Part shown: piece after piece, positions 11,991-39,427 of the stretch
Layout of the letters: each line of letters opens with the position of its first letter
Position numbering within the stretch: position 1 is the stretch's first letter
DNA from: Elusimicrobia bacterium CG_4_9_14_3_um_filter_62_55
GTDB lineage: Bacteria; Elusimicrobiota; Elusimicrobia; UBA1565
Reading direction: 5' to 3'
Assembly: GCA_002790095.1 (NCBI GenBank)
Contig: PFUL01000184.1
Location: forward strand, 2,740-66,739
Length of the DNA stretch: 64,000 nucleotides
Position numbers and translations under genes: made by a program
The notes under the pieces: generated by a model
What the model saw: the letters and a program-made list of their open reading frames with translations, nothing else
What the model was told of the DNA's origin: nothing
Databases searched by the model: none

Positions 11991-13021
11991 GCACCGCCTC
12001 TAATGAGCTTGCGGCCTAAAGTCAACGGGTCGGATTTCTTATCCAAAAGCAGATCGATGTGCCGCTCCGTCACGCGGTCCAGCGTGCTGCGTGTGATCAG
12101 CCGGGAAATCAACAGGGAGAGTTCTTTGCGCAATTGCCGCTTGCGTCTTTCAAGCAGTTTTCCGGTTTCCTCGAGATGCCGGCCGTGGTCCACGATGGAG
12201 CCAAGAAGTTCCTCGACGCCTTTCTTCGTGCGGGCGGAGACGGCGTGAACCGGAACGACCCAGGCCCCTTCTTCCGCGTCCGGACCGAGGCTCATCGCGT
12301 CGCGGATGTTCGCGACGGCCTTGTCCACTTCCTCGAGATCGGCCTTGTTGACGGCGAAGACGTCGGCGATCTCCATCGTCCCCGCTTTCATCGCCTGAAA
12401 CTCGTCGCCTTGATACGGCGCCGTGACGCACACGACCGTATCGACGACGTCGACGATCTCCACCTCGTCCTGCCCGGTTCCGACCGTTTCGATGAAAATC
12501 CAGTCGAACCCCCTCTTTCCCTTCGCGGCTTCATAGGCCTGAAGCACGTGAATCGCGGCGAAAATAGTTTCATTGAGTCCGCCGACCATCCCGCGGGTCG
12601 CCAGGCTGCGGAAGAATACGCCCTCGTCGAGCGCGTGTTCCTGAACGCGAATGCGGTCTCCCAGGAAGGCGCCTCCCGTGTAGGCGCTGCTCGGGTCCAC
12701 CGCGAGCACCGCCACCGTTTCCGCGTCCTTTCGGACGCGGGCGACGAGAGCGTTTACAAGACTGGATTTCCCGCTGCCGGGGGATCCGCACAACCCTATG
12801 GTCCGGGAACCGCCGTGGTACGGGAAGAATGCCCGCGTCACCGCTTCGTATCCCGAATACTCGTCGGTCACCATCGTGAGCGCCCGCGAGACGGCCCCCT
12901 GATCGCCGCGGCGGACCCGCTCAAGCAGTTCGGGTGCCGCCGCCCGACGGCTTCTGGAGGCGGCACTTCCTCGCGATAGCGCTCGGTCGGCGGTCGCCGC
13001 GCGGCGCTTAGCGGCGCGCAT
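11987..13021 (-). CDS. meaB: Methylmalonyl-CoA mutase-associated GTPase (ArgK/MeaB)
   Basis: P-loop [14 protein letters not shown], and the ArgK family layout. Confidence 0.85.
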
Positions 13022-13484
13022 GGCGTCCCTTCTTCTTCGCGGCGGCCTTCTTCGCCGTCTTTTTCGGGGACGACTTCCACGAGCCCGTCTCCAGCGCGTC
13101 CTTCAAAAACTCTGCGATCCGCACCGTCGGAGTTCCCGGCCCGAAGACCGCCGCGACCCCGCTCTTCCTAAGGGCGGCCTCGTCTTCTTCGGGAATAATT
13201 CCCCCGCCGAAAACCATCACGTCGTCGAGCCCCGTTTTGCGCAAAAGATCGACGACTTTCGGAAACAAAGTCATGTGCGCTCCGGAAAGGAGGGACAGTC
13301 CGACGGCGTCCACGTCCTCCTGCAGCGCCGTTCGGGCGATCATTTCCGGAGTTTGCCGAATCCCGGTGTAGATCACTTCGAAGCCCGCGTCGCGCAGGGA
13401 GCGAACGATGACCTTCGCCCCGCGGTCGTGCCCGTCGAGACCGGGCTTGGCGATAAGAATTCTATATGCGTTTTTATTGGCCAT
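13008..13484 (-). CDS. Methylmalonyl-CoA mutase B12-binding subunit (small subunit)
   Basis: DGHDRG (DxHxxG) cobalamin-binding motif. 158 aa with an AGGAG RBS. Confidence 0.85.
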
Positions 13485-13493
13485 CGGAATCTC

Positions 13494-14606
13494 CTACCAA
13501 ATGCCTTCCTGCGTCTCGAGCAGCTCCACGATCGCGTCGGCGATGTCCGGGTCGAACCGGGTTCCTTTTCCGGCCCGGATTTCCCGAACCGCCGTCTCGA
13601 TGCGCTGCTCCGGCGGAACCCCGCCGTTCATGCGCAGATCTTCTATCTCTTCGATGACGCGGAGCACGCGCGCGCCCTCCGGAATTTCCTCGCCTTTCAA
13701 TTTTCCCGGGTAGCCCGTCCCGTCGTAGTTCTCGTGATGGTGACGGATGATCGGAAGAGCGCCCTCGAGCATGTTGATGCCCTCGAGCATTTTCACGGAC
13801 AGAAGCGTGTGCTGTTCCTCCACCGGAGACGTGATCCCGACCAATCCGAGGATGCGCGGATTCTTAAAGCCGACGTAGCCGATGTCGTGCAGCAAGCCCG
13901 CGTAGTACGTCATGCGGTACAAATAATCGTCTCCGCCCATCGCCCTTACCACGGCGCAAGCCAGGCGGGCGACCCGGTTGGGGTGGTCGAAGTTGCGCGG
14001 CTTGGAAACCTCGATCATCCCGCCCAGAAGCTCCAGAACGTGTGAGAAGAAATTCTTCTGATCCTGGATGATGCGCGTGTTCGTGATGGCGACCGAAGCG
14101 AGATTCGCCAGGCTCGAGAGCAATCCGATGTGTTCGTTGGCATAGGTGCCTGTCCGTTTATTGAGGACCTCGCAAACCCCGACCAATTCCCCGCGGAAAA
14201 ACATCGGCACCGCGATCAGCGAGCGAGTGATGAACCCCGATTTCTTGTCGAACTGCCCGGCGAACCGCGGGTCCTTCGACGCGTCGGGGACGATCTCGGG
14301 ACGGCCTTCTTTCGCCACCCATCCGGCGATGCCCTGTCCTATGGGCAAGGTCATTTTTTTAAGCTTCGCCCCGGCCTCGCCTCCCGCGACCTTGAAGTAG
14401 AGGCTCTTCCGGTCGTCGGTTACGAGCATGATCGCGCTGGCTTCCGAATCGAGAAGACGCTCGGCGGCCGTGCCGATTTTCTCCAGCAGGAAATCCAGGT
14501 CGGGTGTGGAGTTGAGAGAACCGGCGATTGAGAAGAGTTCGAGGGCGAGCGACAAATCGCCGACGCCTCCCTTTGCGGAAATGGAATCGGGCGCGGGAGA
14601 GGTCAT
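13494..14606 (-). CDS. GAF sensor domain + HD-GYP domain phosphodiesterase (predicted c-di-GMP hydrolase)
   Basis: An N-terminal GAF-like region is followed by HDIGY...HHENYDGTGYPGKL (HD and GYP motifs intact). The start codon overlaps the upstream stop (tcat at 14603-14606). Confidence 0.8.
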   Translation of the reverse strand: MTSPAPDSISAKGGVGDLSLALELFSIAGSLNSTPDLDFLLEKIGTAAERLLDSEASAIMLVTDDRKSLYFKVAGGEAGAKLKKMTLPIGQGIAGWVAKEGRPEIVPDASKDPRFAGQFDKKSGFITRSLIAVPMFFRGELVGVCEVLNKRTGTYANEHIGLLSSLANLASVAITNTRIIQDQKNFFSHVLELLGGMIEVSKPRNFDHPNRVARLACAVVRAMGGDDYLYRMTYYAGLLHDIGYVGFKNPRILGLVGITSPVEEQHTLLSVKMLEGINMLEGALPIIRHHHENYDGTGYPGKLKGEEIPEGARVLRVIEEIEDLRMNGGVPPEQRIETAVREIRAGKGTRFDPDIADAIVELLETQEGIW

Positions 14607-16417
14607 TGCGGCTTATCCTCCTCTTTTTCCTGGCCGCCGATCACTTCGCGGACCGTCGTCCAGCCCAGTTTCACCTTCTCGAGACCGTCCTGCATGATGG
14701 TTCGAAAATTCCCCTGTCCGACGGCGATCGGGGTCAGAGTCGAGACCGACATGTCGGTCAGGGAAACCTTGCGCAGCTCGTCGCCGAGAATCAGCAGTTC
14801 GTGAAATCCGATACGACCCTTGAAGCCGGAATCCTTGCACTCGTCGCAGCCCTTCCCCTTCATGAATTTCGTCCCAGGTGGAACATCGACCTTATGCTCT
14901 TCAAAGAGGGCGAGTTCCTCAGGTCTCGGATCGTGAGGTTCGGCGCAATTCTTGCAGTTGCGGCGGCCGAGACGCTGGGCCAGGATGGCCTTGGTCGTGG
15001 AAGCGACCATGTAGGCCGGTACGCCCATTTCAGCGACGCGGCTTAAAGTCGAAAGCGAGTCGTTCGTGTGAATGGTCGAGAAGACGAGGTGACCCGTCAT
15101 CGCCGCTTCCATCGCGATATGCGCCGTTTCCCCGTCGCGAATTTCGCCGACCATGATAACGTCCGGATCGAGACGCAAAAACGAGCGGAGCGCCGAGGCG
15201 AAGTCGAATTTCTTCCCCTCGCCGAGCTTCAGGTCCGGGTTGACGGGGACCTGCACGATTCCGTCGAGGTTGTATTCGACCGGGTTTTCCGCGGTGAGAA
15301 TCTTGATGTCCGGGCGGTTTACATAATTAAGGCAGGAGTAGAGCGTGGTCGATTTTCCGGAACCCGTCGGACCGCAGACGACGATGAGACCGAAGTTCTT
15401 TTTCCCGCCGATGCCCTCGAGCAGTCCCAGGAGGTTCCTCTTCGTATCCTCCATGAAACCCATCACGTTGATGTCGACCTGAATCGATCGGCGGTCGAGA
15501 ATACGAAGCACCGCGGACTCTCCGTAGACGGTCGGCACGATCTCGACGCGGAACTCAATGGGGTTGCCGCCCGCGAGAATCTGGATGCGCCCCGACTGAG
15601 GGATGCGGCGCTCGGTCAGGTTCATCGAGTTCGTCAAAATCTTCAACTTCGCCATGATGGCCTGGCGGTAGGCCCACGGCACCTTGAAAGGTCCGGTCTT
15701 CAAAATACCGTCCTGGCGAAAGCGCAGCAGCAGGGCATTGTTCTTTCCGGAAGGATCGGCGAACGGTTCGATATGAATGTCGGAGGTCTTCGACTGAATC
15801 GCCGAGAGGAAAATCGCGTTGACCCACTTCTCGACTTCCGGGGCCGAGGGGTCGACGTCCGAAATATCCGACGCGGGCGCGTCTTTCTTGACGTCGCCGT
15901 CGAGATCGGGAGGACCGTCCTCGCCTCCCTTCTGCACGTCCTCGATGAGAGCCCCGAGCGCGGCGCCTTCGCCTCGGTTGTACGCCTGATTGAGCGCGTC
16001 GATCACGTCCCACGGCATGGCCAGATAGGCCTGGACGTCGAGGCCGGTGCGCAGATGGATATCTTCGGAAACGAAAAAGTCCTTCGGGTCGGCCATCGCG
16101 ACGAAGAGGATGGATTCCTCCTTCGCGAACGGAATCGCCTGATGCCGCCGCGCGACGGCTTCCGGAATGATCTGAACGATCTCTTCGTCGGGCTCCATCT
16201 GGGAAAGGTCGACGGCCTTCACCTGCCACTCCTCGGACAAAACCTTGAGGAGCTTCGGCTTCTTCATCAGCTTGTCTTCGACGATGACCTGCTGAATCGG
16301 CTTGTCTTCCTTTTTCGCCTTCTCCGCCGCGGCTTCGAGAATCTTCTCGTCGAGGAGTTTTCGCTCCTTGAGAATCTCGGCGACGGTCTTGCGTCGGACG
16401 AGGCCTTTAAGAGCCAT
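14603..16417 (-). CDS. GspE/PilB-family secretion/pilus assembly ATPase with N-terminal T2SSE_N (GspE_N) domain
   Basis: Start taken at MALKGLVRRK with a GGAGAA RBS. Walker A GPTGSGKSTTLYS and a C-terminal tetracysteine (CKNC...CDEC) are present. The track ORF start 16672 is an upstream over-extension. Confidence 0.85.
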   Translation of the reverse strand: MALKGLVRRKTVAEILKERKLLDEKILEAAAEKAKKEDKPIQQVIVEDKLMKKPKLLKVLSEEWQVKAVDLSQMEPDEEIVQIIPEAVARRHQAIPFAKEESILFVAMADPKDFFVSEDIHLRTGLDVQAYLAMPWDVIDALNQAYNRGEGAALGALIEDVQKGGEDGPPDLDGDVKKDAPASDISDVDPSAPEVEKWVNAIFLSAIQSKTSDIHIEPFADPSGKNNALLLRFRQDGILKTGPFKVPWAYRQAIMAKLKILTNSMNLTERRIPQSGRIQILAGGNPIEFRVEIVPTVYGESAVLRILDRRSIQVDINVMGFMEDTKRNLLGLLEGIGGKKNFGLIVVCGPTGSGKSTTLYSCLNYVNRPDIKILTAENPVEYNLDGIVQVPVNPDLKLGEGKKFDFASALRSFLRLDPDVIMVGEIRDGETAHIAMEAAMTGHLVFSTIHTNDSLSTLSRVAEMGVPAYMVASTTKAILAQRLGRRNCKNCAEPHDPRPEELALFEEHKVDVPPGTKFMKGKGCDECKDSGFKGRIGFHELLILGDELRKVSLTDMSVSTLTPIAVGQGNFRTIMQDGLEKVKLGWTTVREVIGGQEKEEDKPQ

Positions 16418-18038
16418 GGTATTCTCCGAAGACGCCGCGCAGGGCGTCGCAGATTTCTCCGGTGGTCGCGCCGCGCTTGACCGCGTCGCCGACCAGCGGA
16501 AACAGATTCTCCTTCGAACCGGCCGCCTTCGCGAGCCGCCCGACCGCCTCCTCCGCGGCTGCGCCGTCTCGCTTGCGCCGGAAGGACGCGAGACGTTTCT
16601 TCTGCTCGCGCTCAAGCCCCGGGGAAACCTTGAGCGTCTCCCGCTCCCCGGCCCTTTCGACCGCGCCGTCAATTTCGTAGGAGTTCACGCCGACGATTTT
16701 TCGGCGACCCGCCTCGATGTCCTTCTGGTAGCGGTAGGCGCTCTGTTGAATCTCGTTCTGAGCCCAGCCTTTCGCGATCGCGGGAATCATCCCGCCCATT
16801 TCTCGGACCTTTTCGAGCGTCTTCCAGGCCCGGGTCTCGATCTCGTCGGTCAGCGCCTCGATCGCATACGAGCCCGCGACCGGGTCCACCGTGTCCGGCA
16901 CGCCGGTCTCATGCGCCAGAATCTGCTGCGTGCGCAGCGCGAGTTCCGCGCTTTCCTCGGTCGGAAGCGCGAGCGCCTCGTCGAACGCGTTCGTGTGGAG
17001 GCTCTGCGTCCCTCCGAGAACCGCCGCCATCGCCTGCAGGGACACGCGCATGACGTTGTTGAGGGGTTGTCGGCTGGTCAAGGTCGAGCCGCAGGTCTGG
17101 GTATGGAAGCGGAGTTTTCCGGAGCGCGGGTCCTTCGCGCCGTAGCGTTCGGTGACGATCCTATTCCACAGTCGGCGGGCGGCCCGGAACTTCGCGATCT
17201 CTTCGAGGAAATGGTTGTGGCAGCCGAAAAAGAACGCAAGCCTCGGCGCGAAATCGTCGATCGAGAGTCCGCGCGCCAGGGCCGCGTCGATGTAGGCCTC
17301 GGCGTTGCCCAAAGTGAACGCGACTTCCTGAACCGCGTCGGAACCGGCTTCGCGGATGTGATAGCCCGAGATGGAAATCGGATTCCATTTCGGATAGTGC
17401 CGGACCGAGTATTCAATCACGTCGGTCGCCAGGCGCATGCCGTGCTCGACCGGAAAGATGTAGGTGCCGCGCGCCAGATATTCCTTCAAAATGTCGTTTT
17501 GGACCGTGCCGCGCAGCATCGCGGGCTTCGCGCCCTGCTCTTCGGCCACCGCGGCGTACAGCGCAAGCAGCACCGGCGCGGTCGCGTTGATCGTCATCGA
17601 GGTGGAAACGTCCCCCAGCGGAATCCCGGAGAACAGGGTGCGCATGTCGTCGATCGAGCCGATGTGAACCCCGACGCGGCCCACCTCGCCGCTCGCAGCC
17701 TTGGCGTCCGCGTCGTGCCCGATCTGAGTCGGCAGGTCGAACGCCGTCGAAAGGCCGGTCTGCCCCTGTTCGAGCAGGAAGCGAAAGCGCTTGTTGGTCT
17801 CGGACGCGGTCCCGAAGCCCGCGTATTGGCGCATGGTCCAAAGCCGGGAGCGGTACATGTCGGAGTGCACCCCCCGCGTATAAGGGCCCTCTCCGGCGTT
17901 TCCGATCGCGGCGGCGGCGGTCTTTTCCCGCGTATCGCGTCCGGCGGCGCCTTCGGCGCCCGGTCCGTAAAATCGTTCCAAGGTGATTCCCGACGGAGTC
18001 GTGTACTCCGCGGAGGCTTCGTCGACCGTGTCGCTCAT
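16407..18038 (-). CDS. Methylmalonyl-CoA mutase large (catalytic, N-terminal TIM barrel) subunit
   Basis: Start taken at MSDTVDEASAEY with a GGAG RBS. RTMRQYAGFGTASETN... is characteristic of MCM. The track ORF start (18251) is over-extended. Confidence 0.85.
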   Translation of the reverse strand: MSDTVDEASAEYTTPSGITLERFYGPGAEGAAGRDTREKTAAAAIGNAGEGPYTRGVHSDMYRSRLWTMRQYAGFGTASETNKRFRFLLEQGQTGLSTAFDLPTQIGHDADAKAASGEVGRVGVHIGSIDDMRTLFSGIPLGDVSTSMTINATAPVLLALYAAVAEEQGAKPAMLRGTVQNDILKEYLARGTYIFPVEHGMRLATDVIEYSVRHYPKWNPISISGYHIREAGSDAVQEVAFTLGNAEAYIDAALARGLSIDDFAPRLAFFFGCHNHFLEEIAKFRAARRLWNRIVTERYGAKDPRSGKLRFHTQTCGSTLTSRQPLNNVMRVSLQAMAAVLGGTQSLHTNAFDEALALPTEESAELALRTQQILAHETGVPDTVDPVAGSYAIEALTDEIETRAWKTLEKVREMGGMIPAIAKGWAQNEIQQSAYRYQKDIEAGRRKIVGVNSYEIDGAVERAGERETLKVSPGLEREQKKRLASFRRKRDGAAAEEAVGRLAKAAGSKENLFPLVGDAVKRGATTGEICDALRGVFGEYHGS

Positions 18039-18373
18039 CGAATCTCCAATAGGTCCCCTTCGGACACGCTGCCGTCCAGCGCGCCTGCGGGCAGTTCCAG
18101 CACGCTGTGCGCCGTGAACACCCACGGAGACAAGCGCCAAGGCTTCAAATCCTCGATCACGCGCCGTACGCGCAAGTTTCGGTCGAGGAACAGGACGTCG
18201 ATCGGAAAGCGCATGAAGAAGGTATGGATCATCGGGCACGGGACGATCCAAAGCCCTTCCTCGGCCTCCATCCGGTCACGGCCCAACAGCCCCTGAGCCC
18301 GCGACGCGGCCGTATCCGCCAGCGCCACTTCCCGCGCCACAATCCGGTCCCGCGTACGGTTAAAGGCTATCAA
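18035..18373 (-). CDS. DUF192-like small protein
   Basis: 112 aa with TTG start; FLDRNLRVRRV..ELPAG resembles DUF192. Its stop overlaps the MCM large-subunit start. Confidence 0.45.
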   Translation of the reverse strand: MIAFNRTRDRIVAREVALADTAASRAQGLLGRDRMEAEEGLWIVPCPMIHTFFMRFPIDVLFLDRNLRVRRVIEDLKPWRLSPWVFTAHSVLELPAGALDGSVSEGDLLEIR

Positions 18374-18424
18374 AATAGCCTCGCGCGCTCCAAGAATTTC
18401 CCATGCGGTGTATGGGGATATTAC

Positions 18425-19229
18425 CTAATCGGAGGGGGTCTCGGGCGGAGAGAGCAGTTCCTCAACGAGAAAACGCGCCTTCAGCGGAATTACACCCCGC
18501 GCAAGGTAGGCTTCGATTGCCGCGAAAACCTGCCTCGGATCGGTGAGGCCAAGATAACCGATGAGAAATTCGACGTCGGCGCGAAAATCGCGTCAACGTT
18601 CTTCGTCGCGTCGAGGCTTATCCCCTCTCTAAGAAATTCCCAAGGACGAACAGATTGCGTTTGCGAAAGATCGCCGGAGATTCCACCAGGGCAGAAGCCT
18701 TCAGGCTCTCCGCTTCCGATAAGAACCACGGGTCTTCGAGTCGACCAATCCCGCGACACCATTCCGGTGCCGACTCTCCGAGCAGGAATTCCACGCTCGA
18801 GGCGTACAACGCCCGCACTCGCCGAGGGCAGTCCGGGTCCGGCGCGAGCGCGCATAGGCCCGGATCACGCAGACGGCGATACGCGTCGACGAATTGAAAC
18901 AGCCACAGCGTCCACGTTTCCTCCCCCTCCAGCTTGATCCGCAGCGAAGTCTCGGCCACCGAATCCGGACCGGCGAGCCAATGACGGGCAAGGAGCCTTT
19001 CGGCACCGGCGGACGAGAAGCCAAGCGCCGCAACGGTCGCCGTGATGGTAGACCATCGGGGGTCCGTCGCGCCCGACTCCAGTCGTTGGAGGGCACCGAA
19101 GGAGAGACCTGCGGCAATGGGGAATATTGGCTCGCCACATAACGGCCACAGAGCGTTGACGACGAACCTGTTTTATAACGTCTTTCCCCATTTGCCATCC
19201 CGAAGAAATCGGATTTTTTGAGAAGCCAT
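18425..19229 (-). pseudogene. Disrupted gene of unknown function: one reading frame broken by an in-frame TAA and two frameshifts
   Basis: Minus-strand translation starts at ATG 19227-19229 (MASQKIRFLRDGKWGKTL*), continues open for ~190 codons (...LWLFQFVDAYRRLRDPG...NFLERG*), then shifts frame twice (ISLDATKNVDAIFA | DVEFLIGYLGLTDPRQVFAAIEAYLARGVIPLKARFLVEELL...SD*). The track shows only fragments 18618..18959 and 18490..18855. Confidence 0.45.
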
Positions 19230-19248
19230 TTAAATTTCAGCACTTTTA

Positions 19249-19266
19249 GCATATCGCGCGATATGC
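19249..19266. promoter_or_regulatory. Perfect 18-bp palindrome GCATATCGCGCGATATGC in an AT-rich divergent promoter region
   Basis: Read directly; the reverse complement is identical. It sits ~20 bp upstream of the 19227-19229 ATG on the minus strand and ~115 bp upstream of the HNH gene on the plus strand. Confidence 0.6.
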
Positions 19267-19382
19267 AAAAAGTCCTTACATTTTAAGCGCTTCATGAAAA
19301 ATCCGATTTGGATCTCCCGCGGCAGGGAACAATTTCGGTGGCCGACGCGTACGAAGCATCAAAAGTACAGAGAGGGTCAGAC

Positions 19383-20531
19383 ATGGACGATGATTTCGAT
19401 TGCGCTTCACTCAGCGATGCTCAACTTATTGCTTCACTCAAGGCCTGCGTGGAGGACGAGCGCCGCCAGACAGTTAAGATCCTAAAGCGGCTTAACGAAG
19501 TGGAACGACGCGACTTGTTTTCCAAGAAGCGATATTCCTCGATGTTTGCGTTTTGCATCGGCGAGCTCGGCTACTCGGAAGGCGCTGCCGCGCGGCGCAT
19601 TCATGCCGCTAGAGCCGCGAAGAACTTTCCGCTCATTTATCGGCGCCTTTCCGGCGGCAGCATCAGCCTGACTGCCGTTTCACTGCTGGCCCCGCATCTG
19701 GACGATGAAAACCATCGCGGGCTGTTGGACCGATGCGCCGGGAAGAGTTCTCGCGAGATCGACCGAATCCTCTCGGAATTCTCCCCGCGTCCGGCTCCCC
19801 GCGACTCGATCCGCCATCTCGGCACGGCCCCGTCGCCATCCGAAATTCCGGGAGACGACGCCAGCGGCGCGCTGCCCTTCTCAGGCGTTTCGGATTCCGC
19901 CCTCACGGAGCCCCAACCGATGTCGTCCGGCGGCGAAGCAGGGCAAAAAGACGATGCCTCTTCCGCTCCGCCCGGCGACCCGGGACCGAAGGAGGGTGAG
20001 CGCGTCTCGGTCACGTTCTCTGCCGACCAGAGATTCGTCGACCGGCTGGAAAGGGCCCGGCAATTGCTGCGTCATAAGTATCCGGCCGCGCGATTTGAGC
20101 AGGTGCTTGCCGACGCGCTCGAAGCGCTTTTGGACCGCGTCGACCCGTTCCGCCGGGAGGCGAGGCGGGCATCCAAATCCAGACTCGCTTCGGAGCAGTC
20201 TTCGGACGGAAGTCAGAACCCGGCCCGGGCGGGCGTCGTTTCGGGAGAATCGTCAGGCCGGACGATACCGGCGCGCCTGCGCGACGCCGTTTGGATACGC
20301 GACGAAGGATGCTGCGCGTACATCGACGACGAAGGGCGCCGCTGCGAATCCCGGGACTTTTTGGAGATCGACCATGTGGTCCCGCACGCCCTCGGAGGGA
20401 GTTCCGATGACGCCGGCAACCTGCGCCTGCTTTGCCGCGCGCACAACCGACGCGAAGCGGCGCGCATTTTCGGAGAGGAGTTTATGCGGGCCGCCTCCGA
20501 CCGGGCGGCGCGGAACCGGATTAGCGGATAA
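19383..20531 (+). CDS. HNH endonuclease domain protein (DUF222 N-terminal domain + HNH; REP13E12-like)
   Basis: C-terminal DHVVPHALGGSSDDAGNLRLLCRAHNRRE HNH motif. Start taken at MDDDFDCASL; the track start 19308 lies in the AT-rich promoter. Confidence 0.75.
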   Translation: MDDDFDCASLSDAQLIASLKACVEDERRQTVKILKRLNEVERRDLFSKKRYSSMFAFCIGELGYSEGAAARRIHAARAAKNFPLIYRRLSGGSISLTAVSLLAPHLDDENHRGLLDRCAGKSSREIDRILSEFSPRPAPRDSIRHLGTAPSPSEIPGDDASGALPFSGVSDSALTEPQPMSSGGEAGQKDDASSAPPGDPGPKEGERVSVTFSADQRFVDRLERARQLLRHKYPAARFEQVLADALEALLDRVDPFRREARRASKSRLASEQSSDGSQNPARAGVVSGESSGRTIPARLRDAVWIRDEGCCAYIDDEGRRCESRDFLEIDHVVPHALGGSSDDAGNLRLLCRAHNRREAARIFGEEFMRAASDRAARNRISG

Positions 20532-22176
20532 GCGCCAAGCGCGCCTTCTGCATCCCGGCATCGGTTTTGACGAGCAGAATGTACACCCCGCTGGCGACGT
20601 CGTTGCCGGCGTCGTTTTTGCCGTCCCAACTGGTGTTCGAGCCCAATTGCCGGACGAATTCCCCGGCCATCGTGTAGATGCGGATATCGGCGTTCTTGCC
20701 CTGCAGGCCCGTCGGGATCGTGATCGTCGCGGCGCCGTGCGTGGAAGGACGGAAAGGGTTCGGGAACGCGATCACCTTGGCGTCTCCGTCGAAGCCGGAG
20801 AGGGTGCCTTCGGCTGTCAATTTCATGGCGCGAAAGGCATTAAGAAGACCCGCTCCCGATGATTCGCCCATCACCCTAGTCGAGGGGGTCAACGACGCAA
20901 CACCGATGCCGACGGCCGACGCCCTGAGGTTGCTTTTAATCGTAGCCCAAGTAATTGCCGGATCTTTCGCGATCATGAGAGCGGCGACTCCGGCTCCGAT
21001 GGGCGATGAAAACGAAGTACCGGTGGCCCCGCCGGTATAACTTCCCGAAAGATCGGTGGTAACAATCGCAACACCCGGTGCCACGAAACCGTTGGCAGCG
21101 AGTTCCGGGCCGCGTGAAGAAAAAGAAGCTATGTTGTTGTTTGCATCCGTCGCGCCGACCGGGATGGCGTTCGGACAATTTCCCGGCTTATTTATCGTCG
21201 TGGGGTTTCCGTTTCCGGCCGACACGAACACCGGAATGTCTGCGGCGACGGCGTTCCCGAGGGCCGTGTTCACGGGGTCACCCGCCGCACACGTTCCTCC
21301 TCCGCCGATGCTCAGATTAACGACCATCCGGTTAACCGTCGGACTGCTCTTGTTGACAGTAATAATCGTCGTCAAGGCATTAATAATCGCCTGATCGTCG
21401 GTAAAACAGGTATTCCCACCGGCTTTATCGCCGCAATCCGTAGTGCAGTCCGTCGTGTTGAAGACACGGAATGACAGAAGACGGGCTCCCCAAGATACTC
21501 CCGCCACACCGGTTCCGTTGTTGGAAGCCGCTGCCGCAACCCCTGCAACCCGCGTTCCGTGATTGCATGCGATAAGCGGGGTTTCGGGGACACAGACCGC
21601 CCCGGTTCCAGCAGTATCATCAGAACCAGGATCGCAATAATAACTCGTCGACAGGAACTTATCCTTCAATTCCGGATGCGTCACTTCGATGCCGGCATCA
21701 ACAACCGCTATCGTTACGGTGCTGGAGGAACCGACTTCATACTCCCACGCGGCCGGCATATTGATGGAAGCCAGGTGATATTGTGACGCATAGTTCGGGT
21801 CGTTGGGCACCTTCGTCGGACGGTACGCTGTGTTATGCGTCACAGCCTGAACACCGTCCACGCCGCGCGCGAAGATCAACCCATTGCTAACGGACATCCC
21901 TGGCGGAAGTCGCGCCAAATCCCAATGGATGCTCGGAAACTCCTGCAGCAAAGACATTCCTCGTGCTGAAAACGCCTGATTCTTCGCGGCAGAGGAAACC
22001 CCGTTTGAAAACTGCACGAAGACCTCGCCGGAAGCCACTTGAATCTCTTCCGTACCCGAGCCGCCGGTCGATAACGGAACGGAACGACGCAAAGTCTCCA
22101 CCTGAATCGCGCCCGCCGGCACAGCCAACCCGGCGGCGAACAGCACCGTCAAAATCGATCGCTTCATGCTCAGCAT
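20521..22176 (-). CDS. Secreted subtilisin-like serine protease (S8) with T9SS-type C-terminal sorting domain (FlgD-Ig-like CTD)
   Basis: Start taken at MLSMKRSILTVLFAAGLAVPAGA (signal peptide) with AAGGAG RBS. Catalytic D (VVDAGIE), H (NHGTRVAG) and S (GTSFSSP) are present. The C-terminus IRIYTMAGEFVRQL..WDGKNDAGNDVASGVYILLV matches the CTD pattern. The track ORF start 23100 is an over-extension. Confidence 0.85.
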   Translation of the reverse strand: MLSMKRSILTVLFAAGLAVPAGAIQVETLRRSVPLSTGGSGTEEIQVASGEVFVQFSNGVSSAAKNQAFSARGMSLLQEFPSIHWDLARLPPGMSVSNGLIFARGVDGVQAVTHNTAYRPTKVPNDPNYASQYHLASINMPAAWEYEVGSSSTVTIAVVDAGIEVTHPELKDKFLSTSYYCDPGSDDTAGTGAVCVPETPLIACNHGTRVAGVAAAASNNGTGVAGVSWGARLLSFRVFNTTDCTTDCGDKAGGNTCFTDDQAIINALTTIITVNKSSPTVNRMVVNLSIGGGGTCAAGDPVNTALGNAVAADIPVFVSAGNGNPTTINKPGNCPNAIPVGATDANNNIASFSSRGPELAANGFVAPGVAIVTTDLSGSYTGGATGTSFSSPIGAGVAALMIAKDPAITWATIKSNLRASAVGIGVASLTPSTRVMGESSGAGLLNAFRAMKLTAEGTLSGFDGDAKVIAFPNPFRPSTHGAATITIPTGLQGKNADIRIYTMAGEFVRQLGSNTSWDGKNDAGNDVASGVYILLVKTDAGMQKARLALIR

Positions 22177-22859
22177 CCGTTCTCCTTGCGGATGATCCCC
22201 GGCAACTGCCCGATGTCGTCGAGTTCGTAATCCGCCCCCGACTTCCCCGGCTCGGTCCCGAAGGTATCGCCGTATTTCGCCCACGCGGCCTTGATCCCCA
22301 GCTTCTTCGCCCCGACGATGTCCCGCTCCGGCCAATCCCCGACCATCAAGGTCTCGGCGGGCGTGGTCCCGAGCACCTTCATCGCGGCGCGGAAGGGTCT
22401 CGGGTCCGGCTTGCGGGCGCCGGAATCCTCGGAGGTGATGATGTCCTCGAAATGATGGTGCAGGCCCAAGCCCACGATGCGCAGCCAGACTTCCAGCTTC
22501 GGCGCGTCGGACAGCACGATCATTTTGATGCCCATCTTGCGCAGTTCGAAAAGAACCGGACTGACGTGGGGATACAGCGCGAAGGTCCCGTGCTTCGCGC
22601 GGCGGTATCCGACAATGCCGGCGGCGAGGATGCGCATGTCGATGCGGCCAAGCTCTTTCTTGAGGATTTTGTCGAAAATCCGCTGGTCCTCGACTCCTTC
22701 GGCGAAATAGAGATCCATGATCTTCTCCTTCATGGTCTCCTTGTCCGCCTCGAGCCCCGCGTCGATCATCATCTCCACTGCGGCGTCGACGGCCGCCCGC
22801 TTCGTGCGCATGAAATCGGTTAAAGTGTTGTCGATATCGAAAATGACGCCGCGGATCAT
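22170..22859 (-). CDS. HAD-superfamily hydrolase (subfamily IA, phosphatase-like)
   Basis: MIRGVIFDIDNTLTD (DxDxT), VLSDAP and GDWPERD motifs. Confidence 0.8.
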   Translation of the reverse strand: MIRGVIFDIDNTLTDFMRTKRAAVDAAVEMMIDAGLEADKETMKEKIMDLYFAEGVEDQRIFDKILKKELGRIDMRILAAGIVGYRRAKHGTFALYPHVSPVLFELRKMGIKMIVLSDAPKLEVWLRIVGLGLHHHFEDIITSEDSGARKPDPRPFRAAMKVLGTTPAETLMVGDWPERDIVGAKKLGIKAAWAKYGDTFGTEPGKSGADYELDDIGQLPGIIRKENGC

Positions 22860-22900
22860 TGCATGCTTCCCCCGAACGTGAATGATAGAATATTGGCGTC

Positions 22901-23884
22901 ATGGAAGCACCGCTTTCCCCCCGGACGAAGAACGTCGTCCTGATCTGGATCGGCCGTCTGGGGGACGTCCTGATGACGACGCCGCTGTTTAAAGCGATCC
23001 GGGCGGCCGCGCCGAACGCCCGCATCCGCCTGGTCACCGGCGAAGCCGGGCTGCCCGGAGCCCGACTCGCTCCCGCGATCGACGAAGTGCTCGTGCTCAA
23101 ACGCGCGTCCAGCCCGCTTCATAATTTAAAGCTCGCGCGAGCGCTGCGCGGCGTCGAAGCCGACCTGCTCCTGGATCTCAACTCCGCGTTCTCGAGGGCC
23201 GCGGCGGTGCTGTGCCGTCTCGCGCGCGCCCGCGTCCGCGCCGGTTTTGAACGCAATCGCGGGAACTCCCTCTTCGACATCCTCGCGGCGCCCGCCGGAA
23301 CGCAAGAGCATATGCTCGACCGCTACGCGCGGCTCGGCGCGGCGATAGGAGCCGCTCCCGAAGGGACCCCGGAAGCTATCGTACCCGAACGCGCGCGCGC
23401 TCGCGCGCGAGAAGCGGCGGCGGGCGTCCCGGGCGAGGGTCCGCTGATCCTCGTTCATCCCGGCAACTTCAAAAAATACGACAACCGCTGGCCGGAGGAA
23501 AAATTTTCGGCGCTGCTCGCCCGCTCGGAGGGGCGCTTCGCGCTGCTCGCGGGTCCTGGGGAGCGCGACGCCGTCGAGGAAATCGCGCGCAACAGCGGGA
23601 AACCCGTGCCCGTGCTGGGATCCCTCACGATCGAGGAGAGCGCGGCGCTCATGGAAGCCGCGGGGCTCTTCATCGGAAACGCCACGGGATCGGCTCACCT
23701 CGCGGCGGCGGTCGGGACGAAGACGCTGACCTTCCTCTCCGCGTATACGAAAAAGGTCTGGATGCCCCAAGACGGCGGCCCCGACGGCCCCCGCCATTTT
23801 CAATTGGTGTCCGAATCGTGGAATTCCTGCCGCGATATCCCCGTCGACGCCGCCGCAGCCGCCCTGCGCCGAGCGCTGGCCTGA
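22901..23884 (+). CDS. Glycosyltransferase family 9 (ADP-heptose:LPS heptosyltransferase-like)
   Basis: N-terminal IWIGRLGDVLMTTP and overall RfaF/WaaC-like layout. Confidence 0.75.
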   Translation: MEAPLSPRTKNVVLIWIGRLGDVLMTTPLFKAIRAAAPNARIRLVTGEAGLPGARLAPAIDEVLVLKRASSPLHNLKLARALRGVEADLLLDLNSAFSRAAAVLCRLARARVRAGFERNRGNSLFDILAAPAGTQEHMLDRYARLGAAIGAAPEGTPEAIVPERARARAREAAAGVPGEGPLILVHPGNFKKYDNRWPEEKFSALLARSEGRFALLAGPGERDAVEEIARNSGKPVPVLGSLTIEESAALMEAAGLFIGNATGSAHLAAAVGTKTLTFLSAYTKKVWMPQDGGPDGPRHFQLVSESWNSCRDIPVDAAAAALRRALA

Positions 23885-28115: not shown

Positions 28116-29827
28116 CGGGTCGCGTCCTCGAGCAGCAGCCACTTCAAGCCGTCGGCCGCGCTTTTGTTGCCTGGATCCAATTGCAGGGCGCGTCGGTAGG
28201 CCGCGATCGCGGCCTCCTCGTCCCCGCGAATCACCATCGCGACGCCGAGCCCCAGATGGGCCAGCGCGTCGGACGGGTCGAGCATCACCGCGCGTCCGAA
28301 CGCCGCCGCGGCCTTGTCCGCCTGACCGAGGGTGGAAAGACCGATCCCTTCGAGAACGTACCAGAGCGCGGATTCCGCCTCAGGGACGCGCTCGGAAGTC
28401 AGGGACTCCGCCACCAACTCCATCCACGCGGTCCCCATCACCCACAGGCCCAGGTCGTTGCCGACATCGCGGGGTTGGAACGCGACCTTCGGGCGTTTCC
28501 CGTCTTTGGGATCGCCCGGCCCCGAGGCCTTTTCCGAGAACTTCAGATTCATCCCAATCCGCGTCTCACTTTCCGGGGGAGCGCCGTCGAGCGTCTTCTG
28601 GAGATCGTCGATGATCTCGCGGATCTTTTCGCGCCGCGCTCCGGCATCGCCGGCCGGCAGGGAGAATTCCTTTTGCGCCCCGATGCTCGTCTGCTGGGGA
28701 AGCTTGCCGGCGCGCTCAAGGGCGGACTTAAGGGAAGAAGGAGTTTCGTCGACGCGGCGCCTGACGAGTTTGGGCTTCGGCAAAAAGGCCATGTCCACTT
28801 GAAGAACCGCCTCCTGTTCGAGAGGAATGCGCGACAGGTTGCGCCTCAACACGTCGAGAGGTCCGGTCGGTTCGGACGCGTTCTCCTGCGGATCGCCCTT
28901 CCCTTCCCCCTTTTCGCTCCCTCGGCCGGTGTTCGGGGAATTCCCGCCGTAAGAAACCGACAGGGCCAATCCTTCGCCGCGGTCCGACGGCGTCAGATGA
29001 AAAACATCCCGAAGCGTCTTGCGCGCCTCATCGGGCCTGTCGCGAAGCAGCGCCGTCCGGGCCAAACGGAAGCGGGCGACGGCGTCGCGGCTTTTAAGCC
29101 GCACGGCCTTCTCGAACATCTCGGCGGCTTCCTTCAGCTTATCCATTCGCTCGTATAGCGCGCCGAGTTCCAGGATCGCGTCCTGATAGCGCGGATAGAT
29201 CACGACCGCCTCGCGAAGCTCGGACGCCGCCTCTTCCTCCCGGCCGAGCCGCCGGTAAAGCATCCCGAGTTGATAGCGGTACAACGGGTGACGCTTATCG
29301 AGTTCCACCGCCTTTCGGAAATGCGTCAGGGCTTCCTGGTAGCGGCCGAGGGATTCCTCGACCGAACCGAGATTCATTTGAATGTCGGCTCGCTGCGGCG
29401 CGAGTTCGGCGGCTTTGACAAACGATTTATGCGCCCCCGGGACGTCGCCTTTCCAAGCGTAGACGATGCCGAGAAGAAGATGAGACTGAGGGTCCTTCCC
29501 GTCGAGCCGAAGGCTCTCCCGGAATTCCGTTTCGGCCTCTTCCACGCGGCCGAGCCAGTAGTAGGCGGTTCCGAGGAATTGATGCGCCTTGGAATCCTCC
29601 GGGGATTTGATGACGGCCTTCGAAAAGTGCTGAAGCGCGCGCTCGTAGTCTTTCCCATCGTAAAACCGCATCCCCAACGCGATATCCTTCGACGCCTGCG
29701 CTTCCATAATGCGGTCCCAATAGGTGGTCTGCCCGACAACCTCCTCCCGCGCCGCGAACGAAACGGCGGGAAGCAGCGCGAACAGCAGAGAGAGAATCAA
29801 GGCCCGTTCCCGATTTCGCGAAGCCAC
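28112..29827 (-). CDS. Secreted TPR-repeat protein
   Basis: Start taken at GTG giving MASRNRERALILSLLFALLPAVSFA|A (signal peptide). Many TPR units follow. The track ORF start 30097 is over-extended through rdgB. Confidence 0.6.
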   Translation of the reverse strand: MASRNRERALILSLLFALLPAVSFAAREEVVGQTTYWDRIMEAQASKDIALGMRFYDGKDYERALQHFSKAVIKSPEDSKAHQFLGTAYYWLGRVEEAETEFRESLRLDGKDPQSHLLLGIVYAWKGDVPGAHKSFVKAAELAPQRADIQMNLGSVEESLGRYQEALTHFRKAVELDKRHPLYRYQLGMLYRRLGREEEAASELREAVVIYPRYQDAILELGALYERMDKLKEAAEMFEKAVRLKSRDAVARFRLARTALLRDRPDEARKTLRDVFHLTPSDRGEGLALSVSYGGNSPNTGRGSEKGEGKGDPQENASEPTGPLDVLRRNLSRIPLEQEAVLQVDMAFLPKPKLVRRRVDETPSSLKSALERAGKLPQQTSIGAQKEFSLPAGDAGARREKIREIIDDLQKTLDGAPPESETRIGMNLKFSEKASGPGDPKDGKRPKVAFQPRDVGNDLGLWVMGTAWMELVAESLTSERVPEAESALWYVLEGIGLSTLGQADKAAAAFGRAVMLDPSDALAHLGLGVAMVIRGDEEAAIAAYRRALQLDPGNKSAADGLKWLLLEDATR

Positions 29828-38399: not shown

Positions 38400-39427
38400 C
38401 CCCTCTGAGTGTACTGAGTAGAACGTCTGCCGAATTCTAGACGAAGCTATTAATGAATTTGCGGAGCGACAGGTCACGCGAGGCGACCTCACGAATCCGC
38501 TGCACGGCCTGTCGGACACCACCGGGAGATCGATAACGGAGTCTCTCTGCGATTTCAGCCGATGTTAGCGGCGAAGACATGCTTAAAATCGCGGCGGTGA
38601 CTCCTTTCGCGTATCCGGCATGCCGGTCACGCCATGCGTTAATCAATCGGTCGATAGGAATTCCGAACTCCGCGCTGACAACGCGGAGAACACGTTCAAA
38701 TACTTCGTCGGTACGCACCACACCGACCGAGGCGTTCGCAGGCGAAGCTGAAGGGGAATTCTCGGTCTCGTACAAACCTTCCTGATCCAGCCAACCGTCG
38801 GCCGTTTCGATGAATTCCGAACGAGCCGTCGTAAATCGAAAGAAGTCTTCGGCGCCATCGGGCCCCGAAAATGGAGAACGAAGCCTACGGTTTCCCGACA
38901 GCGGCTCGGGCCGGTTCAGATAGAGTCCCTTCATGCTGCTCCACCGGTAATCGCGTGGGTCACGGACGATTCCTGCCTGCACCGGGTTCATGTGGATGTA
39001 GCGTCCAACCTCGAACACCGCCTCGTTGCTCAGCAATATCTTGGATTTAAATCGCCCCTGGAAGAGATGACCCACTCGGTTGTGAATTCGATTGAAGCGC
39101 GCGGCAAAATTACTATTCACGCGATGCATATATCTCCACATCTCGCCTGTGAGACTCTCAATCAGCAGGTGGAGATGATTCATCAATAGGCAACGCGCCT
39201 CGATTCGAACCCAACCGAATCGCAGGGCCTCTTCCATCGAGTCGAGGTACCGCCGAAAATCACGCTCCGACCGAAAAATCGGTTGACGATCGACGCCCCG
39301 CACCATGACGTGGTGGAAGGATCCCGCAAGATCAACCCGCTGTTTTCTAGCCATCGATTACCTACACGTACGAACGAACTTGAAAATCGTTCCATCTCCT
39401 CACCAGCACTCAGTACACTCAGAGGGG
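38400..39427. mobile_element. IS200/RAYT-like element bounded by perfect 20-bp inverted repeats CCCCTCTGAGTGTACTGAGT (38400-38419 and 39408-39427)
   Basis: The inverted repeats were read directly and bracket the transposase gene 38437..39354. No target-site duplication was seen. The gene is lower in GC than its surroundings. Confidence 0.7.
38437..39354 (-). CDS. Y1 (HUH) transposase, IS200/RAYT-like, with C-terminal HTH extension
   Basis: HHVMVRGVDRQPIF and NHLHLLI (HuH) motifs, and the Y...NPV region. Confidence 0.75.
   Translation of the reverse strand: MARKQRVDLAGSFHHVMVRGVDRQPIFRSERDFRRYLDSMEEALRFGWVRIEARCLLMNHLHLLIESLTGEMWRYMHRVNSNFAARFNRIHNRVGHLFQGRFKSKILLSNEAVFEVGRYIHMNPVQAGIVRDPRDYRWSSMKGLYLNRPEPLSGNRRLRSPFSGPDGAEDFFRFTTARSEFIETADGWLDQEGLYETENSPSASPANASVGVVRTDEVFERVLRVVSAEFGIPIDRLINAWRDRHAGYAKGVTAAILSMSSPLTSAEIAERLRYRSPGGVRQAVQRIREVASRDLSLRKFINSFV

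What the first reader, a model, noticed from the sequence alone, without database searches (positions are those of the whole stretch)
18425..20531. Degraded gene and HNH endonuclease diverging from an 18-bp perfect palindrome in an AT-rich gap
Seen in sequence: GCATATCGCGCGATATGC (19249-19266) lies between a minus-strand reading frame and a plus-strand DUF222-HNH gene (19383..20531; HNH motif intact). The minus-strand frame starts at ATG 19227-19229 and is interrupted by TAA after 18 codons and then by two frameshifts. The broken frames, once joined, read as a coherent ~270-aa protein with no family I can name. Established knowledge: DUF222-HNH proteins (REP13E12-like) behave as selfish or mobile elements in some high-GC bacteria. 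Inference: a decaying two-gene mobile or defence-like cassette whose palindrome is a shared operator. Its promoter may still feed the long downstream operon (DUF192 through the methylmalonyl genes).
Basis: partly seen in the sequence, partly recalled or inferred. Interest (0 to 1): 0.55.

Follow-up and report, generated by a model that had tools for sequence, protein, structure and literature searches.

The report
Inserted HNH gene beside decayed antitoxin operon
A 2.1-kb piece of acquired DNA sits between two ordinary genes of an Elusimicrobia bacterium. It carries an intact HNH nuclease gene with its own long palindrome, next to the wreck of an unrelated two-gene, toxin-antitoxin-like operon. 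This is ordinary genome decay, but both gene families are poorly described.

Summary
The literal sequence facts hold: an 18-bp perfect palindrome (19249-19266), an intact 382-aa HNH gene (19383-20531) and broken minus-strand coding.

The whole region (~18400-20520, 2.1 kb) is an insertion. Three relatives (mutase 93/86/84% identical) have S8 peptidase, a 24-nt spacer, then DUF192, with nothing between.

The insert holds two unrelated modules:
- **HNH unit.** A 104-bp imperfect inverted repeat (19206-19309) has the palindrome as its core. It is followed by a GGAAC-N17-CGTA promoter-like motif and the ORF. A homologous repeat precedes the closest HNH homologue in an unrelated context. Long palindromes are about 40-fold enriched upstream of this family. 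The palindrome therefore belongs to the HNH gene.
- **Wrecked two-gene operon.** It encoded an XRE-HTH regulator (187 aa) plus a ~170-aa nucleotidyltransferase. Elsewhere the pair is intact in 66/68 loci and has its own operator, TGAC-N12-GTCA (59/64 loci). That operator is absent here.

The "270-aa protein" is really the regulator gene plus two fragments of the transferase gene. The regulator's true start is ATG 19191, and a 34-for-24-nt patch in HTH helix 2 shifts its frame. A sister strain keeps the regulator intact.

HNH and the operon do not co-occur elsewhere (0/80 and 1/80 loci).

The parts
18400..20520 (.). Inserted island (~2121 bp, ends +/-3 nt). It lies between the S8 peptidase stop (TTA on the + strand, 20521-20523) and the old 24-nt spacer in front of DUF192.
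   Evidence: L176, L175 and L177 are relatives with 93, 86 and 84% identical mutase. All three have S8 stop, a 23-24 nt spacer, then DUF192, with no HNH, XRE or transferase anywhere in the loci.
19383..20531 (+). Intact HNH endonuclease gene (382 aa). It has a helical N-terminal domain, a disordered linker, a helical middle domain and a C-terminal HNH domain. The last 11 nt are host DNA, antisense to the S8 3' end.
   Evidence: Pfam HNH 2.5e-6. 100% identical to P0076. The DH...N...HN motif and cysteines are invariant in 30 homologues. AF2 pLDDT is 85; Foldseek matches the HNH domain to Gme HNH 4h9d and to colicin DNases, and the N-terminal domain weakly to ParB/Noc.
19326..19351 (+). Promoter-like motif GGAAC-N17-CGTA, 31 nt before the HNH ATG.
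   Evidence: Present upstream of 23/77 HNH homologues (the hits are predominantly Elusimicrobia) against 7/767 control windows. There are 5 copies in the window against 0.93 expected. Two of them sit directly upstream of other genes.
19206..19309 (.). 104-bp imperfect inverted repeat with 52-nt arms and no spacer. It has perfect 13-bp termini (AAATCGGATTTTT), a perfect 18-bp core and sharp ends.
   Evidence: 42/52 complementary pairs; the next best centre in the window scores 30/52. It is identical, bar one base, in the sister strain L001. It aligns with the repeat upstream of the closest HNH homologue, L174. L047 also has a long repeat (35/45).
19249..19266 (.). 18-bp perfect palindrome GCATATCGC|GCGATATGC, the core of the inverted repeat.
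18618..19191 (-). Pseudogene of an XRE-HTH regulator with a conserved C-terminal domain (187 aa when intact). It is the presumed antitoxin and autorepressor.
   Evidence: 98% identical to intact P0001 in sister strain L001. The family is about 188 aa with HTH_3 plus a conserved C-terminal domain. The AF2 model of P0001 has pLDDT 92.
19113..19146 (-). 34-nt patch replacing the 24 nt that encode SQRDLAAA (HTH helix 2). The net +10 nt shifts the frame after codon 15.
   Evidence: DNA alignment with L001. Helix 2 is residues 17-23 in the model. The patch holds inverted copies of nearby 18972-18982 (11 nt) and 19184-19192 (9 nt); 4/1000 shuffles reach 11 nt. The broken allele is on at least 24 contigs from many samples.
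18565..18609 (-). Fragment 1 of the partner nucleotidyltransferase gene (ATKNVDAIFAPTSNF, family positions ~43-57). Codons 1-40, including the G-x-C-G-G motif, are deleted.
   Evidence: Comparison with the partners in L004, L006, L168 and L169 and with the family consensus. Coordinates.
18425..18580 (-). Fragment 2 of the nucleotidyltransferase gene (family positions ~122-168, plus stop TAG 18425-18427). About 64 codons between fragments 1 and 2 are deleted, and there is no start codon.
   Evidence: hmmsearch E 2.6e-9. hhalign probability 98%, 55% identity. The sequence is identical in the sister strain L001.
18363..18399 (-). Old S8-DUF192 spacer and the start of DUF192, which is host DNA. 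It contains a 3-nt strain polymorphism at 18384-18386.
   Evidence: Alignment with the empty sites and with the alleles.

Best explanation
Shown:
- About 2.1 kb (18400-20520) was inserted right after the stop codon of an S8 peptidase gene. This split a tight S8 -> DUF192 -> methylmalonyl-CoA mutase gene array.
- The insert is a juxtaposition of two unrelated accessory modules.

Module A, the HNH unit (19206-20531):
- It is a self-contained expression unit: a long inverted repeat whose core is the 18-bp palindrome, then a GGAAC-N17-CGTA promoter-like motif, then an intact 382-aa HNH nuclease gene.
- The repeat is inherited with the gene, and the gene is very probably still functional.

Module B, the dead operon (18425-19191, minus strand):
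- It consists of an XRE-HTH regulator gene followed by a small nucleotidyltransferase gene.
- In intact relatives the regulator gene is preceded by a 20-bp operator, TGACnTA-N6-TAnGTCA, which overlaps a TATA-like centre about 14 nt before the start codon.

Inferred:
- Module B works like an AbiE/MenAT-type toxin-antitoxin pair. The transferase would be the toxin, and the regulator would be its antitoxin and autorepressor.
- The order of decay fits that reading. Both strains have lost the operator and two-thirds of the transferase gene. Only afterwards, in the majority strain, was the now useless regulator gene frameshifted.
- The frameshift came from a 34-for-24-nt patch that looks like a template-switching repair event.
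- The HNH unit's repeat begins 14 nt from the regulator's start codon, which is where the operator normally ends. The arrival of one module next to the other probably removed the operon's control region.
- The palindrome and repeat are probably a binding site for the HNH protein's own N-terminal DNA-binding domain or for a host factor. They could serve autoregulation or insulation of the unit. They are not a shared operator.
For: Insertion:
- Empty sites occur in three relatives.
- The HNH ORF runs 11 nt into host DNA.

The two modules are unrelated:
- None of 80 HNH loci has an XRE or transferase neighbour.
- 1 of 80 XRE loci has an HNH gene nearby.

Module B:
- 66/68 loci have the full-length transferase partner.
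- 59/64 loci have TGAC-N12-GTCA ending a median of 14 nt before the start, against 0/574 control windows.
- The closest relatives L168 and L169 have both features.
- The window holds only transferase remnants.
- An intact regulator allele exists in L001.
- The patch removes helix 2, is present on at least 24 contigs, and is made of inverted local copies.
- The partner has an NTase-type G-G...D-x-D motif, a weak DUF6036 hit and a faint AbiEii hit.

Module A:
- The repeat is far beyond chance.
- It is homologous to the repeat upstream of P0077 in L174, which has no XRE gene.
- Perfect palindromes of at least 18 bp occur in 26% of HNH upstream regions against 0.65% of controls.
- The promoter-like motif is shared.
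- Paralogues within one genome carry different palindromes.
Against: - There is no experimental or covariation evidence that the HNH protein binds the repeat. The ParB/Noc-like match of its N-terminal domain is weak (E about 0.9, TM 0.39).
- The palindrome half-site TTGCATAT resembles the operon family's half-site TTGACATAT. A diverged operator is therefore not fully excluded.
- Only about a quarter of HNH homologues have a perfect palindrome, and only a few have repeats of about 100 bp.
- It is unresolved whether the island arrived in one step or two, and which module came first.
- Toxicity of the transferase is inferred by analogy only. It has no DUF1814 membership and no solved relative.
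- The whole genome was not available for counting HNH or repeat copies.
Confidence: 0.7

Rival explanations
1. The broken gene and the HNH gene form one divergent two-gene mobile or defence cassette, and the palindrome is their shared operator.
For: - The genes are divergent around a symmetric AT-rich region.
- The two were gained together relative to the empty sites.
- The XRE HTH resembles restriction-modification controller proteins such as C.BclI.
Against: - Co-occurrence is 0/80 and 1/80.
- The XRE gene's obligate partner is the downstream transferase.
- The family operator is a different sequence at a different distance from the start.
- The repeat travels with the HNH gene in loci that have no XRE gene.
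- The HNH gene has its own promoter-like motif downstream of the repeat.
Confidence: 0.05
2. The palindrome is a diverged, relocated operator of the XRE regulator. The 104-bp repeat arose by inverted duplication of the XRE promoter region.
For: - The half-site TTGCATAT resembles the family's TTGACATAT.
- The near end of the repeat lies 14 nt from the XRE start, where the operator normally ends.
- The sister strain with an intact XRE gene keeps the palindrome.
Against: - The closest XRE relatives, which have the same recognition-helix type, use the standard operator.
- The core lies 57 nt from the start, not 14, and its centre is CGCGCG rather than TATA-like.
- The repeat's termini and arms align with the repeat upstream of P0077, where there is no XRE gene.
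- L173 has a similar core next to an HNH gene only.
Confidence: 0.1
3. The 104-bp repeat is an independent miniature inverted-repeat element (MITE-like) that happened to land between the two genes.
For: - The boundaries are sharp.
- It has perfect 13-bp terminal inverted repeats and is AT-rich.
Against: - There is only one copy in 64 kb, even allowing 3 mismatches.
- No target-site duplication is present.
- Homologous repeats sit at the same position relative to the promoter and ORF in other HNH loci.
Confidence: 0.08
4. The regulator gene is not dead. The break would be an assembly error, a programmed frameshift, or a way to make a C-terminal-domain-only protein from GTG 18959.
For: - The downstream frame stays open for 184 codons.
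- A 113-aa ORF starting at GTG 18957-18959 was called as a gene in one assembly.
- Many short hits covering only the C-terminal domain exist in the family search, though they may be contig fragments.
Against: - The identical broken allele is on at least 24 contigs from independent samples.
- The change is +10 nt with 34 replaced bases, not a slippery site.
- HTH helix 2 is destroyed.
- The partner gene and the operator are gone as well.
Confidence: 0.07

Closest known systems
AbiE (AbiEi/AbiEii) and MenAT nucleotidyltransferase toxin-antitoxin systems (PMC3985639, PMC7319586, PMC7450476, PMC11375011)
   Same: - It is a bicistronic operon in which a DNA-binding two-domain protein precedes a nucleotidyltransferase-fold protein.
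- A conserved inverted repeat lies in the promoter, as in AbiEi autoregulation.
- The order of decay here (transferase lost first, regulator second) is what a toxin-antitoxin pair predicts.
   Different: - The transferase is about 170 aa. It has a weak, sub-threshold DUF6036 hit and no DUF1814 hit.
- It has no sequence match to any solved MenT or AbiEii structure.
- The regulator has an XRE-type HTH rather than the AbiEi winged helix.
- The regulator's C-terminal domain has no Pfam or PDB relative.
- Toxicity is untested.
DUF222-HNH proteins (REP13E12 repeat family of mycobacteria; Gordon et al. 1999, as cited in PMC10589994)
   Same: - The architecture is a helical N-terminal domain plus a C-terminal HNH domain, with no other mobility gene.
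- The repeated unit is about 1.3-1.45 kb and multi-copy in some genomes.
- 6/30 homologues hit Pfam DUF222 weakly.
   Different: - The window protein itself does not match DUF222.
- It is at a single locus in this organism.
- I found no literature linking these genes to a long upstream palindrome or repeat.
XRE-family antitoxins and controllers with palindromic operators (HipB, HigA, C.BclI, DdrO)
   Same: - These are the best structural and sequence matches for the N-terminal 55-60 residues.
- A 20-bp dyad operator overlaps the promoter.
   Different: - The extra ~110-aa C-terminal domain is unique.
- The partner gene is a transferase, not a kinase, RNase or restriction enzyme.
ParB/Noc/Spo0J with 16-bp palindromic parS/NBS sites
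   Same: - There is a weak fold resemblance to the HNH protein's N-terminal domain (7ng0 probability 0.90, TM 0.39).
- A zero-spacer palindrome lies next to the gene.
   Different: - The match is below significance.
- No CTPase domain was detected.
- This is an analogy offered as a lead, not a membership claim.

Membership tests
DUF222-HNH / REP13E12-like | HNH (beta-beta-alpha-metal) nuclease motif with catalytic His/Asn/His and a cysteine zinc site | tested here: met
   Pfam HNH 2.5e-6, 28 bits against a cut-off of 21.4. C311, C321, H331, C351, H354 and N355 are invariant in 30 homologues. Foldseek matches HNH nickase 4h9d and colicin DNases.
DUF222-HNH / REP13E12-like | N-terminal DUF222 domain (PF02720) | tested here: inconclusive
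   The window protein has no hit at E<=1. 6 of 30 aligned homologues hit, best 8e-5.
DUF222-HNH / REP13E12-like | Repeated (multi-copy) unit in the host genome | tested here: inconclusive
   There is one locus in all 24 contigs read and one hit in the 64-kb window. The next-best database protein is 46% identical. The complete genome was not available. In other MAGs there are 2-3 copies.
AbiE / MenAT nucleotidyltransferase toxin-antitoxin | Bicistronic operon with a DNA-binding antitoxin gene directly upstream of the transferase gene | tested here: met
   66/68 family loci with room downstream have the full partner, usually 0-4 nt away. The window retains only fragments.
AbiE / MenAT nucleotidyltransferase toxin-antitoxin | Toxin belongs to DUF1814 (AbiEii/MenT) | tested here: not met
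   Pfam gives only DUF6036 at 21.4 bits, below the 23.6 cut-off. PADLOC AbiEii is at E 0.01-0.05. A profile search finds no PDB hit.
AbiE / MenAT nucleotidyltransferase toxin-antitoxin | Nucleotidyltransferase catalytic signature G[GS]...DxD | tested here: met
   G31, G32 and D47 are invariant and D49 is nearly invariant (90% or more) in 36 partners. In the window only 'NVD' survives and the G-G motif is deleted.
AbiE / MenAT nucleotidyltransferase toxin-antitoxin | AbiEi-type antitoxin (winged HTH plus C-terminal domain) | tested here: not met
   The regulator has an XRE HTH_3/HTH_31 domain. Its C-terminal domain has no Pfam, PDB sequence or Foldseek match.
AbiE / MenAT nucleotidyltransferase toxin-antitoxin | Inverted repeat in the promoter, for antitoxin autoregulation | tested here: met
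   TGAC-N12-GTCA is present in 59/64 loci against 0/574 controls. Binding was not tested. The operator is absent from the window.
AbiE / MenAT nucleotidyltransferase toxin-antitoxin | Transferase is toxic and is neutralised by the partner | not testable with these tools
   This needs expression experiments.
Free-standing homing endonuclease gene | Presence/absence polymorphism at one site among close relatives | tested here: met
   Empty sites occur in L175, L176 and L177. The gained segment also carries the XRE/transferase remnant, however.
Free-standing homing endonuclease gene | The enzyme cleaves the empty allele near the insertion point | not testable with these tools
   This needs a cleavage assay on the S8-DUF192 junction of L176.
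MITE / transposon (for the 104-bp repeat) | Terminal inverted repeats, target-site duplication and dispersed copies | tested here: not met
   Terminal repeats are present. There is no duplication flanking the repeat, and it occurs once in the window.

The most novel reading that the evidence does not exclude
The HNH family seen here would be a distinct kind of selfish unit: a nuclease with a ParB-like DNA-binding N-terminal domain that carries its own cognate long palindrome or inverted repeat just upstream of its promoter.
- Paralogues in one genome have different palindromes, and arm changes are mirrored. This suggests protein-site pairs or a hairpin/cruciform structure kept symmetric.
- Such a unit may target palindromic DNA. 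In this window it sits exactly where the 20-bp operator of the neighbouring operon should be.
Probability: 0.15. Interest if true: 0.65.

Novelty: new variant of a known kind. Interest (0 to 1): 0.4.

Why it matters
For this window, the result corrects the annotation.
- Public assemblies call spurious 183-aa or 113-aa ORFs here.
- The locus is really an acquired island. It holds one live selfish nuclease gene and a dead toxin-antitoxin-like operon, and it interrupts an otherwise tight gene array.

Two things are of wider use.
- **The XRE + small transferase pair.** It is a widespread, very conserved two-gene module with a sharply defined 20-bp operator. It has no Pfam family for the regulator's C-terminal domain, no solved structure, and I found no literature on it. 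That makes it an easy target for experimental characterisation as a new nucleotidyltransferase toxin-antitoxin variant.
- **The DUF222-related HNH genes.** Their biology is essentially unknown. They turn out to carry long palindromes and a shared promoter-like motif upstream, which gives a concrete handle (a candidate binding or cleavage site) for testing what they do.

The strain pair (intact versus broken regulator, both without the transferase) is a natural snapshot of "toxin first, antitoxin second" decay.

Tried and rejected
no hit, because it is a chimera of two genes with the HTH destroyed.
- **Rfam on 18000-21000:** only a spurious miRNA-hairpin match to the repeat, E 0.35.
- **Sigma-70 promoter and intrinsic terminator scans of 18300-20800:** nothing on the minus strand. 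One chance-level terminator-like site was found on the plus strand at 20589-20611.
- **PDB sequence search and Foldseek for the regulator:** only the HTH matches, and the C-terminal domain has no relative.
- **PDB profile search for the transferase:** nothing.
- **PADLOC:** no defence-system assignment beyond generic HTH and faint AbiEii hits.
- **Copies of the palindrome or the 34-nt patch elsewhere in the window, with up to 3 mismatches:** none.
- **Window neighbour genes (S8, HAD, DUF192, mutase) in the 80 HNH and 80 XRE loci:** no synteny.
- **Terminal repeats or target duplications at the island ends:** none convincing. A 7-nt CATCCCG match that I read by eye, at about 19196 and 20552, was judged to be chance.
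- **Programmed frameshift or alternative genetic code for the TAA:** rejected once the true frame and start were known.
- **Literature:** no papers mention DUF6036, and nothing links DUF222/REP13E12 to palindromes.
Full report
**Observation**

The palindrome GCATATCGCGCGATATGC lies exactly at 19249-19266 and is its own reverse complement. The surrounding gap is AT-rich: GC is 0.44 against 0.62 for the window. The plus-strand gene 19383-20531 encodes an intact 382-aa protein with a Pfam HNH domain. It is 100% identical to a protein deposited for 'Elusimicrobia bacterium CG_4_9_14_3_um_filter_62_55'. On the minus strand, ATG 19227-19229 is indeed followed by TAA after 18 codons.

An 18-bp perfect palindrome is not remarkable on its own. 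The window has two, and first-order Markov simulated sequences of the same composition give a mean of 0.66. This one, however, is the core of a 104-bp inverted repeat at 19206-19309. The repeat has 52-nt arms, no spacer and 42/52 complementary pairs. It has perfect 13-bp termini and sharp ends. The next best centre in the 64 kb scores 30/52, and the background is 13.8 +/- 3.4.

**The broken reading frame is two genes**

The best hit, P0001, is 98% identical and 187 aa long, and comes from a sister strain (GCA_002322475.1, locus L001). It reads MGKDVIKQLRRQRSVSQRDLAAAAGLSFGALQ...NFLERG. The real gene therefore starts at ATG 19189-19191 and stops at TAA 18618-18620.

The DNA alignment shows the two strains are almost identical over 1.1 kb. 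The main exception is that the window has 34 nt (19113-19146) where L001 has the 24 nt that encode SQRDLAAA. The net +10 nt shifts the frame after codon 15. The replaced residues are helix 2 of the helix-turn-helix in a confident model (pLDDT 92).

The broken allele is not an artefact. The exact out-of-frame ORF that spans the patch occurs on at least 24 contigs from independent ENA and JGI samples, while the intact allele occurs on one.

The patch contains inverted copies of two nearby stretches: 11 nt from 18972-18982 and 9 nt from 19184-19192. Only 4 of 1000 shuffles reach 11 nt. This suggests a template-switching repair event. I treat that as suggestive only.

**The regulator's true partner**

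In other genomes the regulator gene is followed immediately by a ~170-aa gene. In 80 metagenome loci, 66 of the 68 with enough downstream sequence have this partner at full length. The partner has an invariant G-G and D47 with a nearly invariant D49 (a G-G...D-x-D nucleotidyltransferase signature), a weak Pfam DUF6036 match below the cut-off, and a faint AbiEii match. It has no solved relative by sequence.

Window positions 18428-18580 match the C-terminal 45 residues of this family (hmmsearch E 2.6e-9, hhalign probability 98%). Positions 18565-18609, in another frame, match family positions ~43-57 (ATKNVDAIF). Both strains share them.

**The operon's own operator is missing here**

In 59 of 64 family loci, a 20-bp dyad TGACnTA-nTATAn-TAnGTCA ends a median of 14 nt before the regulator's start codon. 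None of 574 control windows has it. The two closest relatives, at 62% identity and with the same recognition-helix type, have it as well. Neither the window nor L001 has it. Instead, the 104-bp repeat begins 14 nt from the start codon.

**The palindrome belongs to the HNH gene**

- None of 80 HNH-homologue loci from reference genomes contains the regulator or the transferase. Only 1 of 80 regulator loci has an HNH gene within 3 kb.
- Upstream of HNH homologues, perfect zero-spacer palindromes of at least 18 bp occur in 26% of loci against 0.65% of control windows.
- The closest homologues have long repeats in unrelated contexts without XRE genes: L174 (P0077; 61-nt arms, 70% complementary), L047 (35/45) and the window (35/45).
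- The window's repeat termini, arms and downstream region align with those of L174. L173 (P0078) has a similar GCATCGCGCGCGAGATG core.
- Between repeat and ATG lies GGAAC-N17-CGTA (19326-19351). A motif of this kind is found upstream of 23/77 homologues against 7/767 controls, and directly upstream of two other genes in the window. From general knowledge, it resembles ECF-sigma promoters.
- Paralogues within one genome carry different palindromes, and changes in one arm are mirrored in the other.

The family is related to DUF222-HNH only distantly. The window protein has no DUF222 hit, and 6/30 homologues hit weakly. A model with pLDDT 85 matches HNH nickase and colicin folds at the C-terminus. 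Its N-terminal domain matches ParB/Noc DNA-binding domains only weakly.

**The whole region is an insertion**

Relatives whose methylmalonyl-CoA mutase is 93%, 86% and 84% identical (L176, L175, L177) have the same neighbourhood. In them, however, the S8 peptidase stop codon is followed by a 23-24-nt spacer and then DUF192. None of the three island genes is found anywhere in those loci.

Host homology in the window ends right after the S8 stop (20521-20523) and resumes at about 18399. The HNH ORF runs 11 nt into host DNA and takes its stop codon from it. I found no terminal repeats or convincing target duplication. The insertion splits what is a tight same-strand array in the relatives.

**Interpretation**

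- Two unrelated accessory modules abut inside one acquired island.
- The HNH unit (repeat, promoter-like motif, ORF) is intact and probably active.
- The regulator/transferase operon is dead. Its operator and most of the transferase gene were lost first, in both strains. The regulator was frameshifted later, in the majority strain.
- That order is what a toxin (transferase) / antitoxin (regulator) pair predicts, by analogy with AbiE and MenAT (PMC3985639, PMC7319586, PMC7450476). Membership of DUF1814/AbiEi was tested and not met.
- The function of the repeat is inferred, not shown. It could be a binding site for the HNH protein or a host factor, or a hairpin insulator.
- Whether the island supplies transcription to DUF192 and the mutase cannot be decided. 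No promoter or terminator was detected on that strand.

**Verdict**

The locus is ordinary genomic decay. It does, however, expose two under-described families: a conserved XRE + small-transferase module with a defined operator, and HNH genes with cognate long palindromes. The XRE family has about 92 clusters at E<=1e-30, and no literature was found for DUF6036.

Noticed in passing
window 28198-28215: A second 18-bp perfect palindrome, AGGCCGCGATCGCGGCCT, the only other one of this length in the window.
   Followed up: no
window 39369-39393 (-) and 42326-42351 (-): The GGAAC-N16/17-CGTA motif seen before the HNH gene also sits directly upstream of two other genes (ORFs 38437-39354 and 41511-42317). 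It may be a common or ECF-type promoter in this organism.
   Followed up: partly
window 18384-18386 (old S8-DUF192 spacer): A 3-nt cluster polymorphism among strains. On the minus strand the window and L003 read GCG, while L001 and L002 read CTA. The CTA form matches the empty-site relative L177, so it is probably ancestral. The alleles are recombined with respect to the regulator patch.
   Followed up: partly
L010, L013, L077, L086, L074 (upstream of HNH homologues): The 38-44-bp perfect palindromes in these Elusimicrobia loci have inverted TTATCCAC(A) at their outer ends. This is the DnaA-box consensus as I recall it. The inner 11-13 nt differ completely between loci yet stay symmetric.
   Followed up: no
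L004 9299-10573 and L006 6745-8019: In two distant genomes (an Elusimicrobia MAG and a Kiritimatiellia MAG) the intact XRE + transferase operon lies just upstream of the seryl-tRNA synthetase gene. This could be coincidence or a functional hint, because MenT-type transferases act on tRNA.
   Followed up: no
L064, L084, L072, L080, L037, L046, L085, L038, L087: HNH homologues from Armatimonadota, Acidobacteriota and Nitrospirae MAGs share nearly the same 20-22-bp palindrome, AACTCGGTCC|GGACCGAGTT, about 35 nt upstream of a conserved CTTGACAGGTTT. One locus has a mirrored C/G change. This points to horizontal spread of a ~1.4-kb unit.
   Followed up: partly
window 13008-23100 versus L175: The island interrupts a tightly spaced same-strand array that is contiguous in relatives: HAD hydrolase, S8 peptidase, DUF192, methylmalonyl-CoA mutase, T2SSE ATPase, GAF-HD and a B12-binding subunit.
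   Followed up: partly
L004 6147-9119: An RtcB gene carrying an intein lies next to the XRE/transferase operon.
   Followed up: no
P0072: One family member has an AbrB/MazE-type (PF04014) DNA-binding domain in place of the XRE HTH, fused to the same C-terminal domain. Domain swapping of this kind is typical of antitoxins.
   Followed up: no
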